From assembly GCA_964422855.1 (NCBI GenBank), contig CAYRCS010000001.1, forward strand, positions 4,957 to 68,956: a DNA stretch of 64,000 bases. The letters run 5' to 3'. Positions 1,802-27,750 of this stretch are shown here, in pieces. Numbering within the stretch: position 1 is the first letter of the stretch; each line of letters opens with the position of its first letter. The DNA comes from an uncultured Candidatus Peribacteria bacterium. GTDB taxonomy: Bacteria > Patescibacteriota > Gracilibacteria > Absconditabacterales > Absconditicoccaceae. The notes below the pieces were generated by a model, which saw nothing but the letters and a program-made list of their open reading frames with translations, was not told the origin of the DNA and did no database searches. The position numbers were made by a program, and so were the translations under genes.

Positions 1802-1833
1802 TGTTTTTATTGTTTAGATAATAGTTGGCCTAC

Positions 1834-2109
1834 ATGGATCATGGAGATGTAGCAACGCTCAGAGCTGAGTGAGAAGGAATATGGCGCAAACTCAACTCAT
1901 ACAATGGGATGCTGGAGAAATACGAACAAGCATTGGCTGGTACTTTATCATTCAACTGATCTGTCGACGATATTAAAAAGGATAAACTCGCATTAGAAAA
2001 AGAGATTACAGAACTTATGACATCATCTACATCTATCATACAAACACTCAATCTTCAACCATATGATTATAAGACAAATCCAAATCCGCATCATGAACGA
2101 GCTAGATAA
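1834..2109 (+). CDS. small hypothetical protein (91 aa, coiled-coil-like)
   Basis: ATG at 1834 to TAA at 2107, with two in-frame TGAs. Preceded by a promoter-like element and lies directly upstream of glyQS. An antisense track ORF (1839..2051) competes with it. No homology recognised. Confidence 0.3.
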
Positions 2110-2136
2110 AACAATATTTATTACTTATGTTGATAT

Positions 2137-6963: not shown

Positions 6964-6966
6964 ATT

Positions 6967-7422
6967 TTGCTTACCATCACCAAGCACAAACGTGCCAATT
7001 TGGATTATGATATAGTGGATACCTATGATGCAGGTATTGTCCTTTTTGGGCATGAGGTAAAATCTATCAAAGCCAAAAGTGCAAACCTCGTGGATGCGAC
7101 AGCGTGATTTGTTGGCAAGGCTTTGTGGCTCTATAATCTCGATGTGCAATTGTACAAGAAAACAAGTCGTGTGATGGTGCCCGACTATGAACCCAAAAGA
7201 AAGAGACAACTCCTGCTCAATCAAAAAGAACTCGCAAAAATATCATCAGCACTGGATAGAAAGTGACTGACTGTCGTGCCCTTAGAAGTATATATTTCCC
7301 TCAAAGGCAAAATTAAGATCAAACTCGGTGTCGGAAAATTACGTAGAAAGATAGAGAAGAAACAGATATTGAAGGAAAAAGATATGGATAGACAGATGCA
7401 CAAGGAGATGAAGAATCACTAA
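6967..7422 (+). CDS. smpB: SsrA-binding protein SmpB
   Basis: No track ORF exists here because of TGAs. The code-25 translation [35 protein letters not shown]...[13 protein letters not shown]...[10 protein letters not shown]...[12 protein letters not shown] matches the SmpB family. Start is TTG at 6967 (or ATT at 6964). TAA stop at 7420. Confidence 0.9.
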
Positions 7423-7433
7423 GATCCATATTT

Positions 7434-8660: not shown

Positions 8661-8682
8661 GTGGATGAAATTTTAGTAAAAT

Positions 8683-10020: not shown

Positions 10021-10163
10021 TTTCTATCAACATTATAAAAAAACTGTGAGCAGTATTTTTTATTGTGATATATTTTATTTCTTTGTATGTTTTCTACATA
10101 AATCCTAGGTAATGTCAATCTTATTGCCTTTGCCTTTTGTCCCTTTTTTATTACACAACCATC

Positions 10164-10838
10164 ATGGCACAGATCAAAAATAGCAAAGAAATAGCTCTCA
10201 TTAAACACGCATGCAAACTCACGGATGCGATTTTTGATCGTATGAAGAGAAACTTTGTATGGGAAACAGAAAGAGAACTGGAACAATGGATTTTGGCGCA
10301 GATCAAAAAAGCTGGCTGTAAGCCAAGCTTTTCTCCTATCGTTGCGGCATGACCAAACGCAGCTCATCCACACTGGAAACCTAGTGATGCAAAGCTCAAG
10401 GGCTTTGTGGTGATAGATTTTGGTCTCGTGTACCAATATTATATGTCGGATATGACAAGAACTATCTATGTCGGAAACCCAACACAAAAAGAAGAAGATC
10501 TATACAATCTCGTCCTCCAAAGTCAGCTCGATGGCATCAATTTTATCAGACCAGGAAGGTCGTGTAAAGACTCCCATATCGTCGTGACAAAAACTCTCTG
10601 AGATCATAATCAATATTTCATCCACAGTCTCGGCCATGGCATCGGCACAAGGATCCATGAATGACCTCGTATCAGCCCTAGATCTAAAAAATATTTCCAG
10701 AAAAATATGTGCGTCACCGTCGAGCCAGGCGTCTATATCAAAGACAAGTTATGAATTAGAATTGAAGATACATGTCTGGTAACAGAAAATGGATGTGAAC
10801 AAATAACAAGAAGCACAAAAAGATTGTTGTGTTTCTAA
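10164..10838 (+). CDS. M24 family metallopeptidase (Xaa-Pro aminopeptidase-like, catalytic domain only)
   Basis: Track ORFs 10137..10352 and 10407..10601 joined through TGAs. Motifs: FSPIVAAGPNAAHPHW, VVIDFG..YYMSDMTRT, HSLGHGIGTRIHEGP and VTVEPGVY..G.RIEDT. Confidence 0.8.
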
Positions 10839-11101
10839 TCTTGTTGTGGACGACCAGAAAATCATCGTTCTTCTTTGGATCATCTTTCTCCTACAGTTTC
10901 TGCTAGACTTCCTTCACGGCTACTAGCTGACTTTGTCGTAAAAACATCTAGTATTTCTTTCTTCCCTCCTGTATAACAATTTGGTCATTTCATATCTATA
11001 CAATTAGTTTGGGTTAGTTGGTCTGTGCCGCCATAATTACCGATATCTCATTCATCCAAATTTTTAGGAATTTCTGCATTATTGCCACCAGCCATATCCA
11101 T
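10835..11101 (-). CDS. small hypothetical protein (88 aa)
   Basis: ATG at 11101 to TAG at 10835 under code 25, with 4 TGAs. Lies immediately downstream of the GT2 gene on the same strand. No homology recognised. Confidence 0.3.
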
Positions 11102-11105
11102 ATGG

Positions 11106-12203
11106 TTATCTATAAAAGAATTTCTTGTACAGCATCTCAATTGCGAGCCTTATGCTGTTACTATTTTTTTGTCATTTTTGTAAACTATAGTCTGTATAAT
11201 GAATATGTACCGGAATTTCAAGATATGACATACGATGTGCTACTATCTGCTCGTTGAGCTCATTGGCATAGTGCATGCCATCTGACTGCAGTTTAAATTT
11301 TTGGATGGCGACTAGAGACATCACTCTATAACCATTGTGTGGATCGGATACCTTATTGCTATACATCAAACGGACGACGACTTTTGCTATACCAAGTATA
11401 TATTTTCTGAGTGTGGGAATCTGATATGCAGCAGCTCCAGCTATAAATCTAGACCCTAGGTAGAGATCAACTTTTTGCTCCTGGATGGCCTTGGTAAAGT
11501 TTTTCATATCTGCTATATCCATCTGCCCATCAGCATCAAATCATACTACTCGCTTGATCTGGAGATCGGCGCCGTGTTGTTGCAAGAATGCAAAACCTGT
11601 CTTGGTTGCTGCTCATGCTCCTCTATCTCATCTATTGATAGCATGTCTGACATCTATGATCAATGCGTCAGGATATGTTGTTTGTTTCTCTTGGATGACA
11701 TCTTGTGTGGTATCTGTAGATCCATCATTTACGATGAGTATCTTGTTATATCATGCTTTGATTATATTTTCAATCACTGTACCAATCGTTTGTGCTTCGT
11801 TGTATGCTCTGATCAAGAATACAAAATCATCTTCGGGTTTGTTATTTTTATATTGTTCAATCTGCATATGATGCGTAGATCGAGATTGATCGACAGCCTG
11901 TTGTGTCACAAGCTTACTGAGCTGAGTGATATCTTTGGTGAGTCTGTTGTACAGGTCGATGAAAAAATAGAACAATAATATGATAGACGCATAGACGATC
12001 AGATCAGCACCTCTCGTTACACCAAAATATGTACCAAATTTATTGAGTAAGTCGATATCATATCCAAAAAGTGCGAGCACTGCTCCTCCACCGATAAATA
12101 CGAGAAAATGCAGCAAGGTAGCTTTTTTGCGTTTGTATAGGTCGATACCAAACAGCACAAATATAAGTGCTGCGACGATGATGATAAACTGGAGTAATGA
12201 CAT
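11106..12203 (-). CDS. family 2 glycosyltransferase fused to an N-terminal DUF2304-like membrane domain
   Basis: Track ORFs 11751..12203 and 11172..11522 share a frame. The N-terminus is a four-helix hydrophobic region (MSLLQFIIIVAALIFVLFGIDLYKRKK...GVTRGADLIVY). It is followed by GT-A motifs FVFLIRAYNEAQTIG, LIVNDGSTD and FDADGQ. Confidence 0.8.
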
Positions 12204-12209
12204 CGCAAT

Positions 12210-13484
12210 CTATAGACTATAAATCTTTCCCTGACGTTCGTCAGTTTTTACTACTTCGTATTCTGTATCAGATTTAATTTTGATGATATGTGTGATGCCT
12301 TTTTGTTGGGCGTATTTGATTTGCTTGAGGAAGTCTTCGGCTAGAGGAAACAACTCTATGACTTTGTTGTCTGCGTGATACTGTGCAATAATTTTTTGTG
12401 CAGTGTCTGCAAACTTGCCATCATTAACGATCAGATATGTCTGTGTTGGAGATACAAATGTTTTTTCTAGATCGTAATCTTCGAGCAAAATACTGAGCAA
12501 TCTACTGAGCCCAATACTTCATCCAACTCCTGAGAAGCTCTGCTTCTTGTCTATGAAGTCTGTAAGATTTGCATATGCTCATCCTGAACAGATACTGCCC
12601 AATTCTATCTTACCATCGACAAATGTTTCGAATACTGTGCCGGTGTAATAATCCAATCCACGCACGATAAATGGATCTATGATATAACTCACCCCTGCTG
12701 CGTCCAATTTTTGCGTCACTGCTTCAAGCTTATCCAAAGCATCTTGTGCTGCTGGTGACGATGCAGTAAATGATCTGAGTTGTGCTATATCTTTACCACA
12801 CAATACATTCAATATATCTATATGTGAGTCTTTTATCCCTAATTTGGTAAGTTCTTCTGCAAATTTTTCTTTGGCAATTTTGTGGTATCCATCAAATAGT
12901 TTTAATAGCGCATCGCGATCTTTGCCTGCTATAAGCTCTATCAATGCATAGGTAAATAATTTGTTGTTCACATGAAATTGTGATTTGATTTCCAATCCTA
13001 TCTGAGATCCTACAAACTCTATCGCTTTGGCAAGAGCGATGATACAGTCTGCATCATATATATCGTTGTATCATTTATCTTCTTTGCTCTTCCAGATCAC
13101 ATCGATATCTGCTTGTCGAAACTCTTTGTATCTCCCTTTCTGGTTTCTTTCGCCTCTCCAGACTGGTTGGATCTGGTAACGCTTAAACGGAAACGCTAAC
13201 TCGTTTTGTCGATCAAGTGCATAACGAGCAAATGGGACAGTAAGATCGAAGTGCAATGAATAATCTTTTGCGTCTTCTGGACCTTGCGCCATGCCATAGA
13301 GACCAAATATTTGTTTGGATGATTCTTCTCATCATTTTTTGAGTATGTTTGTATTTTCTACTGCAGGTGTCCAGATATGCTGATAACCGTACTGGGCAAA
13401 AGTTTGGGCAATGGTGCCGTAGATAGCATCAAAAATCTGTTGCTGTTTGGGACTGTACTCGGGGAATCATCCTGGGCGATACAT
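12210..13484 (-). CDS. hisS: histidine--tRNA ligase
   Basis: Track ORFs 13071..13292, 12579..12995 and 12210..12500 share a frame. Motifs: [48 protein letters not shown] and SICSGG. TAG stop. Confidence 0.9.
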
Positions 13485-13508
13485 ACTCTAATACAACAAT
13501 AATAAAAT

Positions 13509-14189
13509 TTAATCTTGAATAGTCTTGATACCAAAGACTTGGACTCGATAACCGTTTTTGTATGCCAATCACATATCTCTGAAGTTGGGATTAACGATAT
13601 TGTCTTTGTGAGCTGGGCTTTCCATCCATGCCTTCATCACCGCATCAGTATCGGTATATCACTTGGCAAGATTTTCACCTGCGAGAGCAAATGGATATCC
13701 TGAGGTTTTGATCCTATCTTCAAAGGTAACTCCTCCCTCAGTCGTATGACTAAAATCATCTGTTCTATCTATATATCCTACATAGAGTTCTGCTATCAAA
13801 CTCAACGTATCGTCTAGTTTGAGTGGCTGGAGATCGAGGTCTAGTCTAATTTCATTGGTCTTGTTTAATACTCCTTCTCTGATCTGTTGATAGAGCAATC
13901 ATTTGACACTGGTTTGATTGTTTTCTAGATTCTTTTTGAGATCAACAACGTGATCATTGACTGCATCAAGGATAGATTCAAATTTGGATGTATCAGATGC
14001 CTTGGATGATGCGGCTATGATCTTACTCTTGATACCTTCTCGTGTTTTGACTTGCTGTGCATAGGTCTGACTTGCCATAGATTGGTCTATTTTTTCTATA
14101 AGCGAATCTCGTTGCGATGCAGCGCTTGTGCTAGCAAATGTAAGGGTCGATGCTAGCACCAAAAGAATAAATTTTTTCATCAAACTCAT
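13509..14189 (-). CDS. secreted CAP/SCP-domain protein
   Basis: Track ORFs 13899..14189 and 13659..13898 are joined by a TGA. Signal peptide MKKFILLVLASTLTFAS. The C-terminal sequence GENLAK-G-YTDTDAVMKAWMESPAHKDNIVNPNFRDMG is typical of the CAP (YkwD-like) domain. Confidence 0.75.
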
Positions 14190-14200
14190 ATAGTAAAAGA

Positions 14201-16387
14201 CTACGACTGTAGAGCTTCTATGACTTGTGGGATAAACTCTTCCAATGGGATGCTCAAATATTTTTCACAATTTCTGACATGTTCTCTATCTACTCCTGCT
14301 GCGAATTTTTTATCTTTGATCTTTTTCATCACTGACTTTACTTCCATACCTGCAAATCATTCTGGTCTCATGAGTGAATACGCATAGAGCAATCACGACA
14401 ATTCATCGATAGCCGATAGATATTTTCTGATAAGCAAATCTACTGGCACTCCTGTCTTCTCTGTATAATGTGAACGGATATCATCGATCAATGTCTGTGG
14501 CAAATTAATTTCCGATACGATAGCATGGAATTCGTCTCCCAAATGTTTGTCAGCGTTTTTGCCGATATGATCTCGATCCACGTCATGGAGCAATCAAGCA
14601 ATATACCAAGGATCTTCATCTTGTCATAACTTCTTGGCAAAATATTGCATCACTTTACCTACTTGTTCACAATGCTTGCGTGTGTCGGTCAGATATTTGT
14701 CAGCAAGTTTTTGTGAGTCGGATATAGATGGGACATTTTCATATTTTACTGCTGGTGTGTTTTGTTGTGGAGTAGTTTTTGGAGTCATTGTTGGAGCGCT
14801 TTCTTCGTGAGTTTGTTCATGGATAGGTTTCATGAGTGGAAATAGTATAGAGTCTCTCAAGTTATCTTGTTGTGTCAGTAATGTTACCATTCTATCAATA
14901 CCCATTCATCGACCGGACTGCCCAGGCATACCGTACTCCATAGCGACAATAAAATCATCATCACCTTTGGTTGCTTCATCATCACCTTTTGCTACAGCAT
15001 CTGCTTGATCATCAAAATTTTGTTGCTGTAAAATTGGATCAACAAGTTCTGAATATGCTTTGATAACTTCCCAACCATTAACCACTACCTGGAACTGTTC
15101 TACAATATTGGCATCTGCATCACTTACACGAGCAAGCGGTTGCATAGTCTTAGGATAATTAGAGATGAACAGTGGACCCAATAATTGGGGTCTTGTTACT
15201 TTTTTGTATAGGTAATCTATCATCGTTGCTACTGTCTGCTCCTCTAATCCTACTCGATTATGCCCTTTTGCTTTGATATCTGATTTGAGTTTTGCTTCAT
15301 CACCTGGTTTGTATAAAGATACATCAATACCGCTATCATTTTTTACCTGTTGGATATAATCTATCCTCTTCCATGGGGTTGTGAAATCTACTTGTTTGAT
15401 ATTTCATTCTTTATCTTTTACTTGGATTTTTCTGTCTAATTTGAGTGTATCAAAAACATAATCAAACATCTGTTCCGTAAATGCCATATTTTTTTTGTAG
15501 TCCCAATATACCGCATAATGCTCTATTGATGTAAATTCTTGCAAATGCGATGGGTCTGATCATTCATTTCTGAAGTTTTTTGCTATTTCAAAAACCTTTT
15601 CTAGTCATCAGACTGTTGCAGTCTTAAGCGCAATTTCTGGCGCAATTCTCAAAAATACATCAATATCATAATCATTGTGGTGTGTTACAAAAGGCCTTGC
15701 CGCCGCCCCACTTGCTGCATTCCCTAGTATTGGAGTCTCTAATTCAGTAAATCATTGTGATCGATAAAATTCTCTAAGAGTTTTGACAAATTTGCTTCTA
15801 AATTGCATCCTCTGCAAACTATCTGTATTGAATATCATGTCTAGATATCTCTGGCGATAGGCATTTTCTGCATCCTCTCCAATACCATGCCATTTATCGC
15901 CCAATGGTCTGATAGCTTTGGTTAAGAATGTAAACTCTGGAGCAAAAATAGTCAATTCCCCCTTGTGGGTCTTAAATACTTCTCATTTTACACCTATAAA
16001 ATCACCCACATCAACATATTTTTCAAAAAATTTATATGCTGACATATCTCCTATATTTTTTTGTATTCCTTGATCTTGGGTATGTATCGCGCAGTTATCT
16101 TTATGAAGCATTATTTGTATAATACCTGTTTCATCTTGCAAACGCACAAATGTGAGTGCTCCATGTGTTCTGGTAAGCATAACCCTTCCAGCAGTAGATA
16201 TCTGGATATATGGAGATGGCACTAGTACTTCAGAGTCTCTTAATTCTTTGTTAGTATCAGCAAAATCAATAACTTGTTGTATTGTATGTATCTTGTCATA
16301 CTGTGCAGCATAAGGATTGATTCAAAGTTCTCTCAACTGCTGGACCTTGGCTATACGAACATCACGTTCTGATACTTTTTGGTTCAT
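14201..16387 (-). CDS. lysS: lysine--tRNA ligase (class II) fused to a C-terminal HD-domain hydrolase module
   Basis: Six track ORFs share one frame (15983..16222, 15752..15955, 14906..15223, 14624..14905, 14393..14593). I checked codon by codon that 15224..15751 has no TAA or TAG. LysRS motifs: [48 protein letters not shown] Pro/Thr-rich linker follows, then the HD module HCEQVGKV...LLHDVDRDH...SAIDEL. Confidence 0.9.
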
Positions 16388-16457
16388 GCGAAAAATATAC
16401 TATAAAATATCGGTTTATATCTAGCAAAAATAGTCGCTTTTGCAAGCGGAAGCAAGC

Positions 16458-17645
16458 TTATCTTGTATAGATGGTCTTAGCCGCAAAAGTTGTCCCTACC
16501 GTATATGCGTACTTCACAAAATCGGTATCCAATCAGAGCTTCTGCTGCCATATCTTGGCGTATGGTACTGCAGTAGCACTAATAGTGATATATGGAGACA
16601 CTTGATTATCGAGCTCATCAGCAACGTATAGTGGATTTTTGTTTGGACTAATCTGTATGGATCGATCTATGATAGATATATCATCTTCGGTCAATTGAAC
16701 CCATCCATCATATATATCTATTGGTACGTACATATCGGTATATGGTGCACCAACAGCTATTCCTGAACAGATAAATCATTGATCGGCATCACAAGCCCAT
16801 GTATCGATATCTCCATCGGCAACGCCACCTGCTTCATTTGTTTGATTGTGCTCACTACCTGCGTCTATTCCCTTGAGTCTCAATATCTCGATGATAAAAT
16901 GCTGTTCTGGCTCACTAATGATATTATCCCCATTTCGATCTCCGCTTGCAATCATACGACGTCTGATGTACAGTCTTTGTGTATCATTATTGTTGATAAG
17001 ATATATTTCCTGTATGCCAGTATCTGTTATGGCTGATGGCCCGTCTCTGGTCCATGTTTCGTTACCAAATTCTATTATTCATCATGTCCCATCTGCATCT
17101 CCTTGGACATCCCAGGATTGTCTAGCATATTGACCGTAGGATTGATAATACGTCCCACTGGTGGGAAATAAGTGTGCTATATTTTCTATTTGGTTCACAC
17201 ATCATTCGCCGTTGAGCATACCATTGGATTGGATAACATAATCGGGATCCAATGGACTAAGCTGATCATCAGTCGAACTACAATAATAGAGTCCATGTCT
17301 ATCGTATGATCACAATGTTGGGATACTATTATAATTACCGTATGCAGTAAATACTCCACATATACCATCTTCTCAGACATCTCGTTGAGATCACAGAGAC
17401 TGATCACATCCAACCATAGATCTAGCTCGATATTCTTCGTAATCGATCGTATAATCTTGGCTAAATTGGTTTATCTTCTCATATAAATAATGCATCCCTT
17501 GGATAACTGATTGTCTGGCTTGGATACGATTTTTGACGATATACGCGTTTTGAAGCAATGAGAAAACTATCGCAAGTAATATCCCCAATGCGGCGACTAC
17601 TACTACCATCTCCAATAGACTATATCCTCTCGTATGTTTCATCAA
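16458..17645 (-). CDS. type IV pilin-like protein (prepilin N-terminal methylation motif), 395 aa
   Basis: The N-terminus MMKHTRGYSLLEMVVVVAALGILLAIVF matches the G-[FY]-[ST]-L-x-E prepilin signature plus a hydrophobic helix. Track ORFs 17391..17645 and 16533..16733 share a frame and are joined through many TGAs. TAA stop at 16458. Confidence 0.75.
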
Positions 17646-17653
17646 CTCCTAGC

Positions 17654-19237
17654 TTAGGCGCTGATGTAAATGAGTACTGCCTCCTTGATCTGTTGCAACA
17701 CTGATCTCGTAGATCCTGATGCTCTATCTATCTTGGATTCCAATGTAGTGATCGCTCCTGACAATATTTGTTTGAACCTAGTTGCATCTCATGACTTGTT
17801 TGCAAGTTTTTGCACAACAGATACAAATGGATTGCTGGACTCTATAACTTCTTCTTCTGGGATTGTAGGTTCGAGAGAAATACCCATAGCCTGGAGCATG
17901 GCTGCTGCGCTTGCCTGGATAGTTTTGGTTACTGCTTTGTCATATAATAATTGTGCGTTAGTTATGATACTTTGCTTGAGTGCGTCTTTTTCTGCTCATG
18001 CTGAGAGTTTATCATAACTCGCTTTTTGCTCTTGGAGATTGGTAAGATTGTCTGTCTGTTGCCCACCCTTATCTACTCGTGCACTATATTGATCTGTAGC
18101 AAACTTCTTGAAATCTGCTTCATATGTCTGCATCCCTTCACCATACAAATCTGCCAAAGTAGTAGCTATAGCGTCTTTGATATCTGCAGCTGCGCCACTT
18201 GATGACAATGCATTTGTCCCTTTTTGGAGTTTGGATTTGACAGATCCTATGTGTGCTAATACGACTTTCATATATACATCCAAATCTGTGGTAGTGGTAG
18301 CTATAGATGTACAATTGATGGCGCCATCTTTGTAATATGCTGATTGGATATCTGCTATCTGTTTTTCTAATTCACGATACAATTGTACGTCGTACCATTG
18401 GCCGACAACATTGTCGATCGCATCATCAAAATCTAAGCCATATAATTTAGCAGTCTCATCTTGTCTGGCTTGGAGTAACTCTATGTAGCCTACGAGGTTT
18501 GTAGATCTCTTGGTTTGATTGCTTACTATAAGCTCAATCTTAGTAGCCAAAGCATCTTGTGCTACTTTTTTTTGATCATTGAGGATATCGAAAATATTAC
18601 CTTGCTGTGCCAAGTATTGTGCGTTAAATGTAGTCAATGTCTCTTGTAACTCTGCATATGATGATGCAATCTTGTCCAACTGTGTGATCTTGATATTCAT
18701 ATCTGCGAGCAATCATGAATTTTGTTTTGCATACTCCGCTACTGTTTCTTTTCTATCAAGTGCTTGATCGTTGTATGTGTTAAATAATTGCAATGTCAGC
18801 GCATTGTAAATATCACCAAAGGTATCTATCTGTGCGTTGACGCTCGCATAATCTACCGTCAAACCAAGGTTGTATTTGTCTATCATCCCTTTGAGATCAA
18901 CGTATTCACTCAATAATTGATTTCTGAGTTTACTCTTATCTGCATCCAGTGCCGTAAGCAGTGGCTTGCTATCTATAACCCCAAGACATGCTAAGCTTTT
19001 GAAATTAGGATCATTATCCACAGACAATCCTGTCGCAGTCTTGATATATCCTGAGTATGCTTTTTCTAATGCATCGAGTGCATCTTTTTTTTGCTTTTCT
19101 AATTTCTGCGAAGTAGTAAGCTGCGGTGTAGTGGTTCCTGTGCTTGTAGATCCCGTATTGGCACTAGCCATACCTACAACAGTAAGTGATAGACCCAATC
19201 AGAGACACATCAGTTTGATAATACCCTTGTTTTGCAT
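17654..19237 (-). CDS. secreted helical protein of unknown function (527 aa)
   Basis: Track ORFs 18713..19198 and 17996..18712 are joined by TGAs. ATG at 19237 gives the signal-like N-terminus MQNKGIIKLMCLGLGLSLTVVGMASA. Stops 8 nt upstream of the pilin start, which has an AGGAG Shine-Dalgarno sequence. Confidence 0.65.
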
Positions 19238-19385
19238 ACTACATAAGAAAAAAGTAAATACAGAATATATACTTGTCTGCGTTTTAGTATTTTATATGTG
19301 CTTTGCAAGTTGCAATTGTCGCCCAGAAGTCTAATTACGTGTATAATTACTCGTGTATGATGTTTTTATTTGACAAAATGCGAAA

Positions 19386-19976
19386 ATGAGCCTAATTCCT
19401 ATGGTAATTGAAAAATCTAAGCAAGGTGAAAGAGCATACGACATATATAGTAGATTGCTCGAAGACAGAATTATATTTATTGGTGAAGAAGTACACGCAC
19501 AGATGGTAAACACTATCGTAGCGCAGATGTTGTTCTTGGAGAAAAAGGATCCAGACAAGGATATCATATTATATGTAAACACTCCTGGTGGTGAAGTATA
19601 TAGTGGTATGGCTATCTACGATGTGATGCAATATGTCAAATGTGATGTACAAGTAGTATGTGTCGGATTGGCCGCATCTATGGGAAGTATCTTCATGGCT
19701 GGTGGAACCAAGGGCAAGAGATTTGCTCTCCCACATAGCAAAATCATGATCCATCAACCATTGTGAGGTACACAAGGGCAAGCGACTGATATCATTATCC
19801 AAGCAGAAGAAATGGTAAAAGTAAAAACAACACTCACCGGTGTCTTGCAAAAACATACAGGACAAAACCTCAAAAAACTCCAAGATGATATGGAAAGAGA
19901 TAAGTGGATGACTGCCGAAGAAGCTGTAGAATACGGCTTGATCGATGCTGTTATCTATCCAAAGAAGAAGAAATAA
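19386..19976 (+). CDS. clpP: ATP-dependent Clp protease proteolytic subunit
   Basis: Motifs [31 protein letters not shown] and [15 protein letters not shown]. The TGA at 19764..19766 sits at a conserved Gly. TAA stop at 19974. Confidence 0.95.
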
Positions 19977-19996
19977 CATATACTATAATCCACAAA

Positions 19997-20025
19997 AAGA
20001 GCGTCTTCGAAAGACGCTCTTTTTA
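19997..20025 (+). terminator. rho-independent terminator after clpP
   Basis: Perfect inverted repeat AAGAGCGTCTT/AAGACGCTCTT followed by a T-run. Confidence 0.7.
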
Positions 20026-20751: not shown

Positions 20752-23700
20752 ATGTGAGCGATCAAACGATTCAAAGATATATCTTCAGCAGATGTAGGTA
20801 GCTGTGGTGGTAAATGAGCATCTCTTGGTGAATTAATGAGAGCCTGATTTCCCTTTGCTGATGGCTTTGTCCTCACGATAGAAGCTTTTGGTAAAAATCA
20901 TGATGAGTGGGCAGATGCTGTCTATGCAGCATATGATCAACTCAATACACAATACATAGCAGTCAGAAGTAGTGCGACCAAAGAAGACGGAATGGATGAT
21001 AGTTTTGCATGACAATTTGATACGTACCTATTCGTCAATAGAGAAACATTGATCGAGCAAATCATGGAATGTCACAAGTCCATCGACTCCCCTCGTATCA
21101 TCGCATATTGCGAGTCTAAAGGAATCAATATATCAGAAATCAAAGTAGCTGTGGTTATCCAAAAAATGATCAATAGCGAAGTAGCGGGTGTGGCTTTTAC
21201 CGTCAATCCTGTGACCAACAATAGAGATGAAATCATGATGGAATGATGATTTTGACTGGGAGAAGCTGTCGTATCAGGAATGATCACTCCGGACAATTAT
21301 ATTTGGAGTAAAGCTAAACAATCTATCACCGATAAGAGCATTAGTCATCAAACAAAGAAGCTTGTATTGGATATGAGTAAGTGAGGCACTATAGAAGAAA
21401 GCGTCGAATCGACCATACAAGAGGTACAAAAATTATCAGATAGTCATATCACGCAGCTTGCACAATTATCAGAAAAAATAGAACAACACTATGGCAAGCC
21501 AATGGATATCGAATGGGCTCTGGAAGATGGTAAACTCTATATCTTACAGGCTAGACCTATTACTACGCTTGTGACACAAATACCACAGACAAATATCGTC
21601 CCACGAGAAAAAGTACTCCAAAGAAATTTCCCTGTATTGGGATATACAACCGGAGCATATTATGAATTTCATGGGATACATTTATGACCCGTAATATGGA
21701 AACGTGATCGTGAGATCATGGCTACGTATCATGTACCACAAGTTTTTCTGATACAAGATCCGAGAGCATACTATACGACCAATGTACTTGATATTATCCA
21801 AGATATCAATGAGGATTTTGAAAAATCGACCGATCAATACAATCAAGAAATATATAAAGCAGTGCGTATCGAACCAGGCAATAGCTATGATGACTTAGCA
21901 GCCCTCAGTGAGATCCACAAACTCAGCTATGGCTTGATGCTTTTGTGATTTGATCTGGTGATAGACATCAAATCCTACATCGATAAACTCGTGCCTGATC
22001 AGTCCGCATCATTTTTGTGATTTCTCGAAACACCTATACAAAAAACTGCTATCCAACGCGAACAGCATGCCATCAATGCGATTAGAAAAAACAATGCACA
22101 TAACGACACGATAGAGCTCGAACAACTTACCTATGATTTTGGGTATATTCATCAAGATTATCTTGGCGAAGCTTGGACTGTAGAAAAATATAAAGAGCTA
22201 TTGGCTCAAGAAGATGCGCTCACCTCTCATATGGATGAGTCGTACGATATCAGTCACCTGTCGGAATACGAACAGCGACTTATTCGCATGTTCAAGAAGA
22301 TGGTCTATATGTATGAAGAATGAAGAAACGCGATGGTCAGATGTATGCGAGCGATCAACAAAACAAGCAAAAAACTTGGCATCGATACAGACAAAATTCT
22401 CTATATGACGGTATCTGAATTTGAAGAAATGTGTCAGAAGCAAGACAAAAATCTCATACTATCTGACGAGCTCTTGGCAAAGAGAAAAGAATGATTTGTG
22501 GCTCATTTTGATAATGGCATATATACCGAATATACTGGAAAACAAGAAGTAGAAAAATTTTTGTCAGAGACGGGTATTATGCATTTCTGGGACAAAAAAA
22601 ATATAGCAGTAGACGAATTAAAGTGAACTGTAGCATTCCCATGATATGCTATAGGAAGAGCTCGCTTAGTCTTTGATCAAAAAGATGCAAATGCCGTACA
22701 AGAATGAGAGATACTTATATCTCCCATGACGCAGGTAGAGTTCCTCTGATGAATGCGTAGATGTGGCGCTATCGTTACCGATGAATGAGGCATCATATGT
22801 CATGCAGCAATCGTCGCTAGAGAATTTGGGAAGCCCTGTATACTCTCTGCTAAAGATGCAACGAGCGCTATCAAAAATGGGGACTTGGTAGAAGTAGATG
22901 CCAATATGGGAGTGGTAAGAATTGTGGAGAAGTTTCAAGATAATCTATTGGCGAAGGCGCGAAAGAAAAATCGAGCAGGTCGATGGAGTTTGTTGTCATG
23001 CTATTATTTTGGCAATCATTATACGCAATCTCTCCAAGAGAAAATGGGAATATCATTGGAAGAAGCCATCATAATAGTGCACAAATGATATAGCGCATGT
23101 TATTTCCTCGAAGAACACAAGAAAAAATTTGGGACGCACTTTGCAAAAATGGCTCAAGAAGATACTACTCTTCTACAGTGATGGTCTGATAAACTTATAG
23201 AAAATACTGACATCATACTTGGGACGATCAAAGAACTCATGGGAAAAAACTTTGAAGCCGGAGATATGGATAGATTTTTGGAAGCATTCTACAACTACTC
23301 AGTCTATCATCGTATCATTAAAGTCTCTGTAGACTATCTTAGTGCTGATATATTGAGTACTGCTCTCTCTCCATTTGAGAAGGCTCGTGTATACGCAGAG
23401 CCTGTCTATGAAAATACTGAAGTGTATATGAGATATGTAGCGGATGCTTTGGGCAAAAAACATAGTATAGCTTCTGAGTTAATATTAGCGACAAGTCCAG
23501 AGCAATTTGCAGATATATTGGTATGAAAAATACCTGATATAAGTGTATTGCAAAATCAATTTGAGAGTTCTGTCTTCTATATCCATCAAGGAAAAACCCA
23601 ATATATTTCCTGATCTAGCGCACAAGAATTTGAACAGAAACTCACTGCAAAAAACGAAGCACAAGAAACGATCAGTGGCCAAACTGCATATCCAGGTAAA

Positions 23701-25503
23701 GTACAATGAAGAGTAAGGATTGTCCTTGATCCTAAACCTGATACAGTTTTTGAAAGATGAGATATATTGGTAACTGGGATGACCAGACCCGAGTATCTAC
23801 CATTGGTAGAAAAATCTGCTGCCTTTGTCACTGATGCAGGATGAATCCTCTCTCATGCAGCAATCACTGCCAGAGAATTACACAAACCTTGTGTTATAGG
23901 AACAGAAGTAGCGAGCAAGATTTTGCAAGATGGAGACTTGGTAGAAGTAGATGCTGACAGCGGGACGGTGAAAATTTTGGAAAAATCTGATAAAAAAAAA
24001 GATAGTGCCGAGATCTGGCAGGATTATCTAGGACAAAAACTCAAACATATGGGTATCCGATGAGGAATTTGTCCACTCGATATAGGTACTTGGTATCCTG
24101 TAGAAGTGATGGAAAACTTGTACCAACTTTTCTGAGCATATAGCTCATCAGCGGTCATCTGTGACCTAAGACAAGAGATACCTACCCAATGGGTATTTCT
24201 CAAACAAAATGGACTGGATGGTTTTGGTCAGCGTGTTGATGAGATCAGAAAAAATGATCCACAGTGATTTGGCAAACTTTTGGTGAGAGTCTATGATACC
24301 TTGGACGAGGTAAAAAAATATTTTGTATCGCAAGATATTGGATCAATAAAAAATCTATCGGATATGGATCTAGCTCAGCGTTTTGTAGATTATAGAAGCC
24401 AGGTACATAAGCTTAGTGTGTACGATCAGATTGTATGGCGCAATGAAACATACTTGGATAAGCAACTCCATGAAAACATACAATCGCTTTGATTGCAGCC
24501 AAATACTGAAGAATACAATAAGGTATTGTTTGCTCTCATCATGCCACTCAGACCATCGACGGTGATGGAAGAAGAACAATCTGTGGTTAATTATGCTCAA
24601 TCCATACAACAAAGTAAAATATCACTTGCACAAGCAGCCATAGAACTAGCAGAACAATTTGGTTGGCTGCCAGCATTTGTAGCTGGTGATGAGTGGTGAT
24701 CAGATCACTACACTCCTCTATTAGAGAAATATATATCTAGATCTTCTGAAGACCTTGCTACAGCGTCACAGAAATATGTTGATCACACGACATCTACACA
24801 AGCTTTGATACACGAATATACCAAGCAGTATACTATATCTGATGCCGTATTGCAGATATGTAGTGATTATGCTCTAGCTATTGACTCCAGAAATGAAGCG
24901 GAATATTATCTTGGATTTGCAAGGAGATATCTCAGACCGGTTTGTCAAACTATCGCTCAGAGATTGTGAGTGAGTGAGGAAGAGTTGAGATTACTCTATG
25001 AAGATGAAGTACCACAATGCATGAGATGAGAAAAAAATATACATGATATTTTGGCAACCAGAAAATGAAGCTATACAGCATATTGCTACGATGCACATAC
25101 GCAAAAATCCTATACTTTTGATGGCGATGTTGCTAAAGCATTTTTGGAACACTGTAAGTCTACACAGGAAGAAAACAAAAAATCGATACATGTCGCGGCA
25201 AGCAAATGAGTGGCTCAGTGAGTAGTAAGAGTTCTCCATGGGCCATATGAAAATGATAAAGTACAGCCATGAGACATACTCATAACACAATCCACAACCG
25301 TTGATTATCTCCCAGCGATGAAAGTATGTGGTGCAATTATCACCGAGGCAGGATGACTTACCTGTCATGCGGCAGTAGTAGCTCGTGAATTGTGAGTTCC
25401 ATGTATCGTATCGTATGCATGAGCGATGACGGAGTTTAAAGATGGGGATCTGATAGAGGTAGATGCGAATACTTGTCTTATCACAACAATAAAAAGAGCC
25501 TAA
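20752..25503 (+). CDS. 1583-aa multidomain phosphotransferase: PPDK_N ATP-grasp domain plus three units of central domain and PEP-utilizer phosphohistidine swivel domain
   Basis: I read frame 1 codon by codon from 20752 to 25503 and found no TAA or TAG, and about 40 in-frame TGAs. ATP-grasp motifs: VGSCGGKGASLGEL, VRSSATKEDGMDDSFA-G-QFDTY, AVVIQKMINSEVAGVAFTVNP, GGFGLGEAVVSG, DIEWALEDGKLYILQARPIT. Swivel domains lie at about 22621..22935, 23671..23985 and 25195..25500. Each has GG-x-x-[SC]-H-A-A, with His codons at 22801, 23854 and 25366. Confidence 0.8.
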
Positions 25504-26945
25504 TGACACATCGGAAAAAAATCTGGTCCAAGAGATACTCACTGAGACTGTGAGAAAATTGGTGTTATGGTACCCAGCAATTTAGAGAATTGTTTGGTGT
25601 AGATTTTCCTGATCAAAGGATTTTTATAGATCAAGGATTTGGAACTGGGTATGTAGATACAGAGCAACTAAATACCTCCATGAATATAATATTAGAGAAA
25701 ATATATGCAGAGTGATTCGCAGCATTTTTTGAAGAAAAATGAGTCCCGGTATTTGAGAATTTTCTATCGTATTGCACTAGCTTACAAGATATACATTTTG
25801 CTATATATACCAATGATGAACTCATAAAACAGCTTCGCGAATTTCTCATACAAGAAGATAAATGGATGCATTATATGTGGATTATTTTCTTGCTGGATGA
25901 AACACTGACCTATCATTTGCAAAAAGATTTGTCAGAAAAATATCCTGCCAACGAACATATAAATATCATACAAGCACTCCTCTCTCAGAATAAAAAAACT
26001 GATGCTCTCCAGCACAAGATAGATACGCTCCACATCATGGCAGATAGAGAAGAAGGAAATATAGATCAAGATATTTTTAAGCAAAGGCTTGCTGCATTAA
26101 CGCACAAATACGCATTTTTTGCAACACTCAATATGGATGAAGGTCCTCTAGCTGCAAACTATTTTTCTCAACTCGTAACAGAGCTTCAGAGTAAATGATC
26201 TGCATCTGCACAACTCGTGGCAATCCAAGAATCAGAAGAAAACAATACGACATTGTCGCAAGAAATTTTGGACAAACACAAGGATGATAAAAATTTATCC
26301 ATACTCTTGGAAGCCTGCAAAAAAGTGTGATACTATAGAGAATGGAGAAACGATATCAGACAGAGAGCATATTTTTATGTTCGCGGATTTTATATCGAGA
26401 TCGGAGAAAGATTTGGGCTAGATATTGATCAAGTAATTTATCTCACACGTGATGAAATCCAACAATATCTGACAGCTTGAACGCTATGGAGGGACCTTGC
26501 TATTATTACACAGAGAAAGGAACATTCACTATTGGAGCAGATAGATGGAACCATATGTTATGTTTTTGATCCTGTAGAAATAGAGAAGCTCACACCTACA
26601 ACAACCGATAATGCACAACATACAGTCAAATGAACAGTAGCATATCAATGACTCGTTACTGGAACTGTTAGAATGATTCGTGATATCACTACAGACAAAG
26701 ATACTTTCAACAAAGGAGATATACTTGTTGCGACGACGACAAATCTAGCCTTTATTCCTCTCATCACCCAAGCATCAGCAATTGTGACGGATGAATGATG
26801 ACTGCTCAGCCATACTGCCATCGTAGCTCGTGAACTCAAGATACCGTGTATTGTAGGAACTAAGAATGCAACGCAGGTACTCAAAAGTGGAGAAACGATC
26901 ACCGTTGATGCTAACAAAGGTTTGGTCACAAGCCACAACTTATAG
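25503..26945 (+). CDS. 480-aa protein: central domain plus PEP-utilizer swivel domain, with no ATP-grasp domain
   Basis: Its ATG overlaps the upstream TAA (TAATG at 25501..25505). I read frame 0 through by hand to TAG at 26943. C-terminal motifs are KGTVAYQGLVTGTVR and [27 protein letters not shown] (His codon at 26811). Confidence 0.8.
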
Positions 26946-27021: not shown

Positions 27022-27750
27022 ATGAGTGAAAGATTGCATACCATCATCGGATCGAGACATTCTAAGCACCAAAATGATATTCCTACTGTAGATGGGCTTG
27101 AGGAAGTTAGAGCAAATGCTGCTCAGATCAAACATGCAGTGCCTGCAAATATACTCAACGCTCAGACAATAGGTACAAACAAAAACAGAACACAAGTAAC
27201 AGCAAAAGAAATTGCCAATACTTTGGGGGTGCCTGTAAGTGAAGTTCAAATCAAAGATTGGCTCAACATCAATCCAGAAAAAAGTCCTGAAAACATTAAA
27301 AAAATTTTGGGCGTCATAGATAAGCAGTATGAAAACGACCCAAGCGTCAAAGCTAATGGATACTCTGATGGGCTAGTGTATCAGATACAACGTAATATGA
27401 TATGCGACATAGAGACAAAGGAAGATGTGGATGTGAGACCTTTTTCTAGATTTACAGCAAACAAACTCTATCAAACAATTCAAATGATCAAAAGAAACCC
27501 TACATATTCTAACCTTAGTATTGGTGGAATACATGGTGGGCGATGGCTTGAGACTGTGCTCTATACTTTTCGAGGAGAAAATATGCCTACAGCTTGGGAA
27601 GGTCAGATTAGAATGGGAGAAATGTTTACTATGCATGTAGATAAAGATACTGAAACAGGCAAAGTATCGCTCGTTGTCAACTATAGAAATGAAGAACGCT
27701 CTGTTTCGGAAGATGATATGAAAGCAGCTATAGATAAACTTCCAGCATAG
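27022..27750 (+). CDS. hypothetical protein, tentatively histidine-phosphatase-superfamily-like
   Basis: Track ORF 26992..27750; ATG at 27022 is preferred. The segments IIGSRHSKH, RTQVTAKEIA and IGGIHGGRWLE loosely resemble the RHG and HG elements of the phosphoglycerate-mutase-like fold. No TGA codons. Confidence 0.45.
   Translation: MSERLHTIIGSRHSKHQNDIPTVDGLEEVRANAAQIKHAVPANILNAQTIGTNKNRTQVTAKEIANTLGVPVSEVQIKDWLNINPEKSPENIKKILGVIDKQYENDPSVKANGYSDGLVYQIQRNMICDIETKEDVDVRPFSRFTANKLYQTIQMIKRNPTYSNLSIGGIHGGRWLETVLYTFRGENMPTAWEGQIRMGEMFTMHVDKDTETGKVSLVVNYRNEERSVSEDDMKAAIDKLPA

What the first reader, a model, noticed from the sequence alone, without database searches (positions are those of the whole stretch)
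20752..25503. A 1583-codon ORF joins one PPDK_N ATP-grasp domain to three consecutive central-domain plus phosphohistidine-swivel units
I read the frame codon by codon and found only TGA interruptions between 20752 and the TAA at 25501.
- The first ~300 aa are a canonical pyruvate-phosphate-dikinase/PEP-synthase nucleotide-binding domain.
- Three units follow. Each has a divergent, mostly helical central region of about 245-400 aa and a PEP-utilizer mobile domain.
- Each mobile domain has an intact GG-x-x-[SC]-H-A-A phosphohistidine motif (His codons at 22801, 23854 and 25366).

In known relatives, such as PEP synthase, the YvkC-like PPDK_N-plus-swivel proteins and rifampin phosphotransferase, one ATP-grasp domain serves one substrate domain and one swivel His. 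I am not aware of a described 1:3 arrangement in a single polypeptide.

Inference: this could be a multi-substrate small-molecule phosphotransferase, in which one ATP-loading domain charges several swivel domains that each deliver phosphate to a different central pocket.
Basis: partly seen in the sequence, partly recalled or inferred. Interest (0 to 1): 0.88.

Follow-up and report, generated by a model that had tools for sequence, protein, structure and literature searches.

The report
Multi-headed small-molecule dikinase, cassette-built
One gene in an ultra-small (CPR) bacterium joins a single ATP-loading domain to three different substrate-pocket-plus-phosphate-carrier modules, with a fourth module encoded just downstream; this looks like an uncharacterised many-headed relative of rifampin phosphotransferase that turns out to be common in CPR bacteria and DPANN archaea.

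Summary
Window 20752-25503 (+) is one 1583-codon frame with 40 TGA and no TAA/TAG before the final TAA. TGA codes for Gly here (genetic code 25). Pfam finds one PPDK_N domain and three PEP-utilizers swivels, with His at 22801, 23854 and 25366.

ORF2 (25503-26945) starts on the stop codon (TAATG) and is a stand-alone central+swivel protein.

Structure models match rifampin phosphotransferase (RPH) over the whole N-central-swivel length. That holds for ORF2 directly and for C1 via a 50%-identical homolog. There is no PEP/pyruvate TIM barrel, so the database label "PEP synthase/PPDK" is wrong.

The 1:3 layout is not unique. Of 330 relatives, 61 are N+3 swivels, 75 are N+2, and some reach N+6. All named sources are CPR bacteria or DPANN archaea.

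Central+swivel units behave as cassettes. The same type occurs stand-alone, as N-C-S, or inside chains at any position. Close relatives of this organism differ by whole units.

Best reading: a multi-headed RPH/HpeHI-type dikinase in which one ATP-grasp domain charges several swivel histidines, in cis and in trans, each serving its own pocket. Substrates are unknown. I found no published description. It is a new variant of a known kind.

The parts
20752..21591 (+). N: ATP-grasp nucleotide-binding domain (PPDK_N), aa 1-280
   Evidence: Pfam PPDK_N E 7.4e-75. The RPH ATP-site residues K22, R117 and T136 correspond to K21, R72 and T91 (alignment; PMC4844700). The N domain of the homolog model superimposes on the RPH ATP-binding domain 5hv6 at TMt 0.90 and matches HpeI 9goj at 35% identity. 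dN/dS against the L004 ortholog is 0.05.
21592..22614 (+). C1: central region, 'G-type', aa 281-621; RPH-like substrate-binding domain
   Evidence: It is 48-51% identical to unit 1 of P0003. The P0003 model (pLDDT 91.7) aligns to full-length RPH over about 910 columns, E 2.9e-36. About 36 residues are invariant across phyla, many of them charged. It is homologous to C3 and to the ORF2 central region (hhalign 97.8-97.9%). dN/dS is 0.10.
22615..22932 (+). S1: phosphohistidine swivel domain, His684 (CAT at 22801)
   Evidence: Pfam PEP-utilizers; motif TDEGGIICHAA; dN/dS 0.05.
22933..23664 (+). C2: short central region, 'D-type', aa 728-971
   Evidence: Its family has 30 or more members, including the stand-alone form P0223. 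It is confidently modelled in P0003 with the same strand/hairpin, helical bundle, hairpin topology. Profile homology to C1 and C4 covers only the last 60-75 aa. The RPH Arg-Glu segment is absent from the alignment. dN/dS is 0.07.
23665..23985 (+). S2: phosphohistidine swivel domain, His1035 (CAT at 23854)
   Evidence: Pfam PEP-utilizers; motif TDAGGILSHAA; dN/dS 0.06.
23986..25176 (+). C3: central region, rare 'L-type', aa 1079-1475
   Evidence: hhalign to the ORF2 central region gives 99.8% over 329 columns, and to C1 97.8%. Only 3 close relatives were found among 330 proteins. It is absent from the closest ortholog, L004.
25177..25500 (+). S3: phosphohistidine swivel domain, His1539 (CAT at 25366); the TAA stop follows at 25501-25503
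   Evidence: Pfam PEP-utilizers, best stretch aa 1505-1574; motif TEAGGLTCHAA.
25503..26945 (+). ORF2: separately encoded fourth unit (C4 aa 1-385, S4 aa 386-480, His437); its ATG overlaps the upstream TAA (TAATG)
   Evidence: Pfam PEP-utilizers E 1.3e-26. The AF2 model of P0121 has pLDDT 90.1; P0121 is the same protein with 10 G>W changes from a code-4 translation and 1 real substitution. Foldseek's best hits are six RPH-Lm structures aligned over the whole unit, TMq 0.55-0.60, E about 1e-11. RPH Y665-R666-E667 aligns with Y278-R279-E280. A stand-alone C-S gene follows the multi-unit gene in the same way in L010, L011 and L012.
27022..27750 (+). ORF3: 242-aa protein of a tiny family, possibly a divergent histidine phosphatase; association with the dikinase locus is tentative
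   Evidence: Its homolog follows the dikinase gene directly in L004. Only 13 hits exist among 1.84 billion representatives. R12, H13, R56, T60 and H171 are invariant. The best PDB profile hit is the PGAM-type phosphoserine phosphatase 4ij5, E 0.023, with weak His_Phos_1 and His_Phos_2 hits. His_Phos_1 genes recur in related loci.

Best explanation
The locus encodes a multi-headed small-molecule dikinase of the rifampin-phosphotransferase (RPH) / HpeHI type.

Proposed mechanism:
1. The single N-terminal ATP-grasp domain binds ATP and transfers its beta-phosphate to the conserved histidine of a swivel domain (ATP -> AMP + Pi + His~P).
2. The charged swivel swings back to the RPH-like substrate-binding domain immediately upstream of it.
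3. There it phosphorylates the bound acceptor.

Three such central+swivel (C-S) modules of different sequence types (G, D, L) are fused behind the one ATP-grasp domain. A fourth module, ORF2, is translationally coupled and is presumably charged in trans, as HpeH is charged by HpeI. Each module is an autonomous cassette with its own specificity, so the locus would phosphorylate about four different acceptors from one ATP-loading site.

What is shown: the domain identities, the folds, the motifs, the modularity, the conservation and the distribution. What is inferred: that the one N domain charges all heads, that the acceptors are small molecules, and that they differ between heads. The substrates are unknown.
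For: - Domains: one PPDK_N and three PEP-utilizers domains in the big ORF. A fourth PEP-utilizers domain is in ORF2, and there is no other N domain in the 64-kb window.
- No PEP-utilizers_C TIM barrel was found.
- ORF2 model (pLDDT 90.1): RPH-Lm aligns over the whole C-S unit, whereas PPDK, EI and pyruvate kinase align only on the swivel.
- Model of the co-linear homolog P0003 (N-G-S-D-S, 50% identical to aa 1-1085, pLDDT 91.7): full-length RPH aligns at E 2.9e-36, and the N domain matches 5hv6 (TMt 0.90) and HpeI.
- C1, C3 and C4 are homologous over their full length.
- Catalytic residues: the ATP-site residues are conserved. The swivel motif is intact in all four units. The RPH Arg666-Glu667 dyad is conserved in ORF2. 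In C1 and C3 the acidic residue and a shared R-N pair are conserved.
- Cassette behaviour: the G-type and ORF2-type units occur stand-alone, as single N-C-S proteins and inside chains. At least 16 central types occur at any position. The closest swivel belongs to a same-type unit in another protein for 416 of 581 units, and to the same protein for only 6.
- Unit turnover: the L004 ortholog (N 93% identical) is N-X-G-D and lacks both L and ORF2. A 99%-identical strain carries an extra stand-alone unit. Saccharibacteria carry six separate tandem C-S genes. L013 has at least nine units in one locus.
- Purifying selection on N, C1, S1, C2 and S2 (dN/dS 0.05-0.10).
- Trans-charging precedent: HpeHI, CreHI and PpsAB (PMC12167813).
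Against: - No biochemical, proteomic or expression data exist for this protein.
- The structure tool rejected the code-25 translation, so the models are of a 50%-identical homolog (P0003) and of a G>W-substituted copy of ORF2 (P0121).
- pTM for the two-unit model is 0.56, so the inter-domain geometry is unknown, including whether S2 and S3 can reach N.
- C2 (D-type) is only partly shown to be homologous and lacks the RPH Arg-Glu segment in the alignment.
- C1 and C3 lack the Arg666 equivalent.
- No central region matches any curated family, so substrate class is pure inference.
- Another N-domain protein may exist elsewhere in the genome.
- One GTDB hit is labelled Gammaproteobacteria (L008), so restriction to CPR/DPANN is not established.
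Confidence: 0.62

Rival explanations
1. Only one head is a working kinase. The other C-S units would be regulatory, decoy or phosphoryl-buffering modules, for example a His-to-His relay or a phosphate reservoir, and would not be independent catalytic heads.
For: C2 lacks the segment holding the RPH Arg-Glu dyad, and C1 and C3 lack the Arg666 equivalent. The inter-domain geometry is unresolved (pTM 0.56). Histidine-phosphatase-like genes recur next to these loci and could act on His~P, as SixA does (this is my own knowledge of SixA; neighbours).
Against: Every unit type also exists as a stand-alone protein or as the sole unit of an N-C-S protein, which argues for autonomous activity. All units are under strong purifying selection, central regions included. 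The G-type region has about 36 invariant, mostly polar residues, as expected of a pocket.
Confidence: 0.12
2. The acceptors are macromolecules or cell-envelope polymers (glycans, proteins, lipid-linked intermediates), as with glucan water dikinase, and not diffusible small molecules.
For: Glucan water dikinases use the same ATP-grasp plus swivel-His chemistry on a polymer (PMC13553574, abstract only). Conserved charged residues in the G-type region do not resemble RPH's hydrophobic drug cleft.
Against: No carbohydrate-binding or other targeting domains were found. The fold match is to the RPH substrate-binding domain, not to GWD. All characterised proteins with this central fold act on small molecules: RPH, HpeH, CreH and PpsA (PMC12167813, PMC4844700).
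Confidence: 0.1
3. It runs in the ATP-forming direction, harvesting phosphoryl groups from host-derived high-energy phospho-metabolites to regenerate ATP from AMP and Pi, as PPDK does in some anaerobes.
For: PPDK and PpsA chemistry is reversible (established knowledge). CPR and DPANN organisms have very limited energy metabolism; for example, Gracilibacteria are reported to lack glycolysis apart from PEP-to-pyruvate conversion (PMC11452946).
Against: Reversal is thermodynamically feasible only with enol- or acyl-phosphate donors. Characterised RPH-type enzymes make ordinary phosphate esters (PMC4844700, PMC12167813). Nothing in the sequence data speaks for this direction.
Confidence: 0.05
4. 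It is what the databases call it: a PEP synthase or pyruvate phosphate dikinase of central carbon metabolism, or a rifampin phosphotransferase proper.
For: JGI names the near-identical protein P0001 'phosphoenolpyruvate synthase/pyruvate phosphate dikinase', and some relatives 'rifampicin phosphotransferase'. The top NCBIfam hits are PEP synthase models.
Against: There is no PEP/pyruvate-binding TIM barrel domain. All NCBIfam scores are below the curated cut-offs: PEP synthase 537.6 vs 598 and 509.1 vs 739.75, RPH 396.3 vs 999, PigC 385.4 vs 1300. Those scores come only from the N domain and the three swivels. The central regions are about 15% identical to RPH.
Confidence: 0.02
5. Artefact: an assembly chimera or collapse, or a string of separate genes or pseudogenes read through because TGA was wrongly taken as sense.
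For: Under table 11 the region breaks into ORFs of under 100 aa.
Against: TGA sites fall on conserved Gly columns. The whole window gives long ORFs only if TGA is sense. Three independent assemblies agree. Standard-code homologs have the same fusions as single ORFs. dN/dS is 0.05-0.10. The units are too divergent for a repeat collapse.
Confidence: 0.01

Closest known systems
Rifampin phosphotransferase RPH-Lm (PDB 5FBS/5FBT/5FBU, 5HV1-3; PMC4844700)
   Same: Same domain order, ATP-grasp then helical substrate-binding domain then C-terminal His swivel. Same folds for all three. The ATP-site Lys/Arg/Thr and the swivel His motif are conserved. The Arg-Glu dyad is conserved in ORF2.
   Different: RPH has one substrate domain and one swivel per ATP-grasp domain; here there are three in cis plus one in trans. 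The central regions are only about 15% identical to RPH. The NCBIfam RPH score is 396 against a cut-off of 999. Nothing suggests that rifampin is a substrate.
Two-component small-molecule dikinases HpeHI, CreHI and phenylphosphate synthase PpsAB (PMC12167813)
   Same: A stand-alone central+swivel protein (HpeH, CreH, PpsA) is charged in trans by a separate ATP-grasp protein. ORF2 and the many stand-alone C-S relatives have that architecture. The N domain of the homolog model matches the HpeI crystal structure 9goj at 35% identity.
   Different: Here the ATP-grasp partner is itself fused to three further C-S units. The known systems pair one N with one C-S, act on phenolics in aromatic catabolism, and occur in Actinobacteria and Proteobacteria, not in CPR or DPANN.
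PEP synthase (PpsA) and pyruvate phosphate dikinase (PPDK)
   Same: Homologous ATP-grasp and swivel domains, and the same His~P swivelling chemistry.
   Different: PpsA and PPDK have the order N-swivel-TIM barrel with a PEP/pyruvate-binding domain, which is absent here. Scores are below the equivalog cut-offs.
Prodigiosin ligases PigC/RedH/HapC and Bacillus YvkC-like PRK06241 proteins
   Same: Same single-unit N-central-swivel layout within the RPH-related family (NCBIfam hits).
   Different: Scores are far below the cut-offs (385-435 against 866-1350), with no match in the central regions. All of these have a single head.

Membership tests
RPH/HpeHI-type small-molecule dikinases | PPDK_N-type ATP-grasp domain with the ATP-positioning Lys/Arg/Thr | tested here: met
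   Pfam PPDK_N E 7.4e-75. K21, R72 and T91 align with RPH K22, R117 and T136 (PMC4844700). In the homolog model the N domain matches 5hv6 at TMt 0.90.
RPH/HpeHI-type small-molecule dikinases | Swivel domain with T/S-x-x-G-G-x-x-x-H carrying the phosphohistidine | tested here: met
   Three PEP-utilizers stretches plus one in ORF2. Motifs are TDEGGIICH, TDAGGILSH, TEAGGLTCH and TDEGGLLSH.
RPH/HpeHI-type small-molecule dikinases | Helical substrate-binding domain of the RPH RIF-BD fold placed directly before the swivel | tested here: met
   ORF2 was tested nearly directly: the model of P0121, the same protein apart from 10 G>W changes and 1 substitution, aligns with RPH over the whole unit, TMq 0.55-0.60. 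C1 was tested through the 50%-identical homolog P0003. C3 was tested by full-length profile homology to ORF2 and C1. C2 is inconclusive: only its last 60-75 aa are homologous by profile, although its modelled topology is similar.
RPH/HpeHI-type small-molecule dikinases | Arg-Glu dyad (RPH Arg666-Glu667) in the substrate domain for the second phosphotransfer | tested here: inconclusive
   ORF2 has Y278-R279-E280 aligned to RPH Y665-R666-E667. C1 has E522-E523 and C3 has I1377-D1378 at those positions. All three share an R-N pair three residues downstream. C2 has no aligned segment.
RPH/HpeHI-type small-molecule dikinases | One ATP-grasp domain per substrate domain and per swivel, as in all characterised members | tested here: not met
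   There is 1 N to 3 C-S in the polypeptide, plus 1 C-S in ORF2. This is the feature that makes it a new variant.
RPH/HpeHI-type small-molecule dikinases | Dikinase chemistry: ATP + acceptor -> AMP + Pi + phospho-acceptor | not testable with these tools
   Requires enzyme assays.
PEP synthase / PPDK (the database annotation) | C-terminal PEP/pyruvate-binding TIM-barrel domain (PEP-utilizers_C) after the swivel | tested here: not met
   No such Pfam hit at E up to 1. Each swivel is followed by a helical central region or by the stop codon.
PEP synthase / PPDK (the database annotation) | Score above the curated NCBIfam equivalog cut-off | tested here: not met
   NF005057 scores 537.6 against 598. 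TIGR01418 scores 509.1 against 739.75. TIGR01828 scores 150.7 against 843.45.
Rifampin phosphotransferase proper | Score above the NCBIfam RPH equivalog cut-off | tested here: not met
   NF041857 scores 396.3 against 999. NF000283 scores 277.1 against 1700. The central regions are about 15% identical to RPH-Lm.
Known anti-phage defence systems (considered because of mobile-element neighbours in related loci) | Match to a PADLOC-DB model | tested here: not met
   No hit for P0003, P0129 or ORF3. P0028 gave only a spurious E 0.0046 hit.

The most novel reading that the evidence does not exclude
CPR bacteria and DPANN archaea share a cassette-built phosphorylation platform. One ATP-grasp 'charger' would serve a changeable set of up to nine or more substrate-specific heads per locus, fused or free-standing. 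The heads are swapped between lineages and even between strains, and are often paired with divergent histidine phosphatases. Such a platform would let ultra-small symbionts with minimal genomes phosphorylate many host-derived metabolites or toxins at the cost of a single ATP-loading domain, whether to trap, activate or inactivate them. The chain architecture would be a kinase counterpart of modular enzymes, with specificity encoded by exchangeable units.
Probability: 0.35. Interest if true: 0.78.

Novelty: new variant of a known kind. Interest (0 to 1): 0.64.

Why it matters
1. It extends the small-molecule dikinase family. Members characterised so far have one substrate domain and one swivel per ATP-grasp domain, whether fused (RPH) or split (HpeHI). 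This adds a third, multi-headed form that breaks the 1:1:1 rule, and it raises a concrete mechanistic question: how does one ATP site serve several swivelling carriers?

2. The form is common and evolutionarily dynamic in CPR bacteria and DPANN archaea, two groups whose physiology is largely unknown. Large, conserved, strain-variable genes in such small genomes are likely to matter for their symbiotic lifestyle.

3. These genes are routinely labelled PEP synthase, PPDK or rifampicin phosphotransferase. They lack the PEP/pyruvate domain, so metabolic reconstructions and resistome counts for CPR/DPANN that rely on those labels are probably wrong at this point.

4. The cassette types give a ready-made set of at least 16 candidate specificities for enzyme discovery.

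Tried and rejected
I therefore modelled the co-linear homolog P0003 and the code-4 copy P0121 instead.
- The central regions alone matched nothing credible in NCBIfam.
- There are no tRNA genes and no Rfam families in the window, so no suppressor or Gly-tRNA(UCA) evidence is available.
- PADLOC gave no defence-system match.
- The viral-contig scan with the ORF2-family alignment returned only swivel-level matches, which are ordinary PpsA/PPDK-like genes, mostly from giant-virus bins. It was uninformative.
- The GTDB scan with the G-type alignment gave only 5 loci, too few for a taxonomic census.
- ORF3 against X1 by BLAST showed no significant similarity. ORF3 alone against the PDB gave nothing.
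- Recent internal duplication as the origin of the three units is rejected. The swivels are 38-50% identical, and their nearest relatives lie in other proteins.
- Assembly collapse or chimera is rejected.
- Seven literature searches and two targeted paper checks found no description of multi-swivel dikinases. One further search attempt failed on term syntax. The library is incomplete, so this is absence of evidence only.

Full report
**1. The observation.**
Translating window 20752-25503 (+) gives 1583 sense codons. The only table-11 stops are 40 TGA codons, and the first TAA or TAG is the TAA at 25501. By my own arithmetic from base composition, a run that long without TAA or TAG has a chance of about 1e-34 in 38.6% G+C DNA.

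TGA is a sense codon throughout the window, because long ORFs appear on both strands only when TGA is read through. It encodes Gly. Of 26 TGA sites that can be aligned to homologs from standard-code organisms, 19 lie on columns where Gly is the majority residue. The background rate is 55 of 1076 columns, and no TGA site lies on a Trp column. One invariant Gly of each GG-x-x-x-H motif is itself a TGA. This is genetic code 25.

JGI holds a near-identical protein, P0001. It differs by 40 G-to-W changes, because TGA was read as Trp, and by 8 real substitutions.

Pfam finds one PPDK_N domain (E 7.4e-75) and three PEP-utilizers stretches (E 3.9e-67).

**2. It is not an artefact.**
- The three swivels are 38-50% identical in protein and below 70% in DNA, so there is no recent repeat to collapse.
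- The same gene lies on three independent assemblies, one JGI contig of 117 kb and two Logan contigs, at 98-99.5% nucleotide identity.
- Homologs in organisms that use the standard code carry the same fusions as single uninterrupted ORFs.
- Against the closest ortholog, the Peribacteria-labelled MAG L004, dN/dS is 0.05 for N, 0.10 for C1, 0.05 for S1, 0.07 for C2 and 0.06 for S2. dS is near 1, so these ratios are approximate.

**3.
The next ORF, 25503-26945, begins at an ATG that overlaps the TAA (TAATG). It encodes a 480-aa protein with a 385-aa central region and a fourth swivel (PEP-utilizers E 1.3e-26, motif TDEGGLLSH). A six-frame code-25 scan finds one N domain and four swivels in the whole window. 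The locus is therefore N-(C-S)3 plus a translationally coupled C-S.

**4. What the central regions are.**
By sequence they match no curated family, so I turned to structure prediction. I therefore modelled two stand-ins:
- P0121, which is ORF2 with 10 G-to-W changes and 1 real substitution.
- P0003, a standard-code protein with the co-linear architecture N-G-S-D-S that is about 50% identical to aa 1-1085 of our protein.

The ORF2 model has pLDDT 90.1. Its six best PDB matches are all rifampin phosphotransferase from Listeria, aligned across the entire C-S unit (545-564 columns, TMq 0.55-0.60, E about 1e-11). PPDK, enzyme I and pyruvate kinase match only the swivel.

The P0003 model has pLDDT 91.7 and pTM 0.56. 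It aligns with full-length RPH over about 910 columns (E 2.9e-36). Its N domain superimposes on the RPH ATP-binding domain at TMt 0.90 and matches the HpeI crystal structure at 35% identity.

Profile-profile comparison shows that C1, C3 and the ORF2 central region are homologous over their full length (97.8-99.8% probability). The short C2 shares only its last 60-75 residues with them, although the model gives it the same strand/hairpin, helical bundle, hairpin layout.

**5. Catalytic residues.**
- RPH's ATP-positioning residues Lys22, Arg117 and Thr136 (PMC4844700) align with K21, R72 and T91 here.
- All four swivels have T-x-x-G-G-x-x-x-H, the motif described for HpeH (PMC12167813).
- RPH's Tyr665-Arg666-Glu667, which is essential for the second transfer, aligns with Y278-R279-E280 of ORF2.
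- At the Arg666-Glu667 positions, C1 has E522-E523 and C3 has I1377-D1378. All three share an R-N pair three residues further on. C2 has no counterpart in the alignment.
- The G-type region (C1) has about 36 invariant residues across phyla, many of them charged. That pattern suits a binding pocket and not a linker.

There is no PEP/pyruvate TIM-barrel domain. Every NCBIfam score lies below its curated cut-off: PEP synthase 537.6 against 598, RPH 396.3 against 999, and PigC 385.4 against 1300. The annotation as PEP synthase or PPDK is therefore not tenable, and the protein is not an RPH proper.

**6. The architecture is widespread and modular.**
All 120 best database relatives carry at least two swivels: 58 NSSS, 43 NSS, 8 NSSSS, 6 NSSSSS, one NSSSSSS and a few permuted forms. 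Over 330 proteins from three searches, the tally is as follows.

| Architecture | Proteins |
|---|---|
| S | 91 |
| NSS | 75 |
| NSSS | 61 |
| SS | 58 |
| NS | 23 |
| NSSSS | 8 |
| NSSSSS | 6 |
| NSSSSSS | 1 |

Every source that names an organism names a CPR bacterium or a DPANN archaeon:
- CPR: Paceibacterota, Peregrinibacteria, Moranbacteria, Parcubacteria, Saccharimonadales, Microgenomates, Kerfeldbacteria and Komeilibacteria.
- DPANN: Nanoarchaeota, Woesearchaeota, Micrarchaeota and Diapherotrites.

One GTDB record is labelled Gammaproteobacteria (L008), and I did not resolve that.

The central regions fall into at least 16 sequence types in two length classes, about 240 aa and about 340-400 aa, and each type is found at any position. 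Our protein is G-D-L, and 80 of 121 proteins have all-different types. The G-type and ORF2-type units occur as stand-alone C-S proteins, as single N-C-S proteins and inside chains. Swivels travel with their central regions. For 416 of 581 units the most similar swivel belongs to a same-type unit in another protein, and for only 6 does it lie in the same protein.

**7. Turnover between close relatives.**
- L004 (N 93%, G 84% and D 83% identical) is N-X-G-D. It has an extra unit X after N, it has no L unit and no ORF2, and the ORF3 homolog follows its stop codon directly.
- A 99%-identical strain has a 2.6-kb insertion between ClpP and the cytidine deaminase, at window position ~19988-19993. The insertion carries another stand-alone unit (X2) and a His_Phos_1-like gene (X1).
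- In Saccharibacteria (L007), six C-S units are separate tandem genes.
- L013 holds a five-unit protein plus four tandem stand-alone units.
- A stand-alone C-S gene abutting the multi-unit gene, as in our window, recurs in L010, L011 (Woesearchaeota) and L012 (Paceibacterota).
- Several loci sit beside integrases, transposases, recombinases, or Fic, RhuM or ParE genes. No PADLOC model matches.

**8. Mechanism proposed.**
By homology with RPH and HpeHI, the ATP-grasp domain transfers the beta-phosphate of ATP to a swivel histidine. The swivel then returns to its own substrate-binding domain and phosphorylates the acceptor. Characterised enzymes pair one ATP-grasp with one C-S, either fused (RPH) or separate (HpeHI, CreHI, PpsAB). 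Here one ATP-grasp is followed by three C-S cassettes, and a fourth is made from a coupled gene. Trans-charging is established for HpeHI (PMC12167813), so service of several heads, in cis or between molecules, is plausible.

- **Shown:** domain identities, folds, motifs, cassette behaviour, selection and distribution.
- **Inferred:** that all heads are charged by this N domain, that the acceptors are small molecules, and that they differ between heads.

The physiological role is open. It could be trapping or activation of host-derived metabolites, or inactivation of toxic compounds as in RPH. The strong cross-phylum conservation of the G-type pocket favours a common metabolite for that head. 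The strain-level gain and loss of other heads favours accessory functions for those.

**9. Literature.**
Seven full-text searches and two targeted paper checks returned RPH, HpeHI, MarK, HapC/PigC, a zearalenone kinase and VadK. They also returned one CPR resistome survey that merely counts rph-like hits (PMC8651080). Nothing described several swivels behind one ATP-grasp domain. The library is incomplete, so this is not proof of novelty.

**10. Verdict.**
The thing is a new architectural variant, multi-headed and cassette-built, of the known RPH/HpeHI small-molecule dikinase family. It is widespread in CPR and DPANN organisms, mis-annotated in databases, and not described in the literature I could search.

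Noticed in passing
window 27022-27750 (+); homolog in L004 directly after the dikinase gene: ORF3 (242 aa) belongs to a tiny family, with 13 hits among 1.84 billion representatives. R12-H13, R56, T60 and H171 are invariant, which is the R-H...R...H pattern of the histidine-phosphatase superfamily. The best PDB profile hit is a PGAM-type phosphoserine phosphatase (E 0.023). Unannotated neighbours of dikinase loci in other lineages also begin with a strand followed by RH[GSA], and annotated His_Phos_1 genes recur there. This may be a kinase/phosphatase pairing, but it is not established.
   Followed up: partly
window ~19988-19993 (between ClpP 19386-19976 and cytidine deaminase ending at 20655); L001-L003 positions 630-3243: A strain 99% identical in DNA has a 2.6-kb insertion here. 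It carries a 336-aa His_Phos_1-like gene (E 1.9e-5) and a 491-aa stand-alone central+swivel gene (PEP-utilizers E 2.7e-22). This is strain-level gain or loss of a dikinase head.
   Followed up: yes
whole window: TGA is a sense codon (Gly, genetic code 25) across all 64 kb. There is no tRNA gene and no Rfam family anywhere in the window. The closest GTDB relative of the dikinase gene (L004) is labelled Candidatus Peribacteria and also reads TGA as sense.
   Followed up: partly
window 14201-16387 (-): A 728-aa lysyl-tRNA synthetase (tRNA-synt_2 E 1.2e-72 plus the anticodon OB fold) carries a C-terminal HD-domain extension (E 2.3e-6). This is an unusual fusion that I did not examine further.
   Followed up: no
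window 16458-17642 (-) and 17654-19237 (-): A 394-aa protein has a type IV pilin N-terminal methylation motif (N_methyl E 1.5e-5). Next to it is a 527-aa protein with a signal-peptide-like N-terminus (judged by eye, not tested) and no family match. They may be pilus or surface components.
   Followed up: no
L013 (JGI 3300048691 contig, locus 6001-20022) and L007 (Saccharibacteria MAG CAZGCO010000006): These loci are extreme cases. L013 has a five-unit protein followed by Fic and RhuM genes and four more tandem stand-alone central+swivel genes, so at least 9 heads. L007 has six separately encoded tandem heads and no ATP-grasp domain within 13 kb.
   Followed up: partly
L010, L011, L013, L014: Multi-unit dikinase genes in other lineages lie next to mobile or accessory-island genes. 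These include an rve integrase, a DDE transposase, Bro-N, a ParE toxin, Fic, RhuM, a resolvase or recombinase, and a reverse transcriptase with a trypsin domain. No known defence system matched in PADLOC.
   Followed up: partly
L008 (CAYYDR010000001, 677-kb contig): Two tandem stand-alone G-type-related units lie on a contig whose record is titled 'uncultured Gammaproteobacteria bacterium'. Either the label is wrong or the family reaches beyond CPR and DPANN.
   Followed up: no
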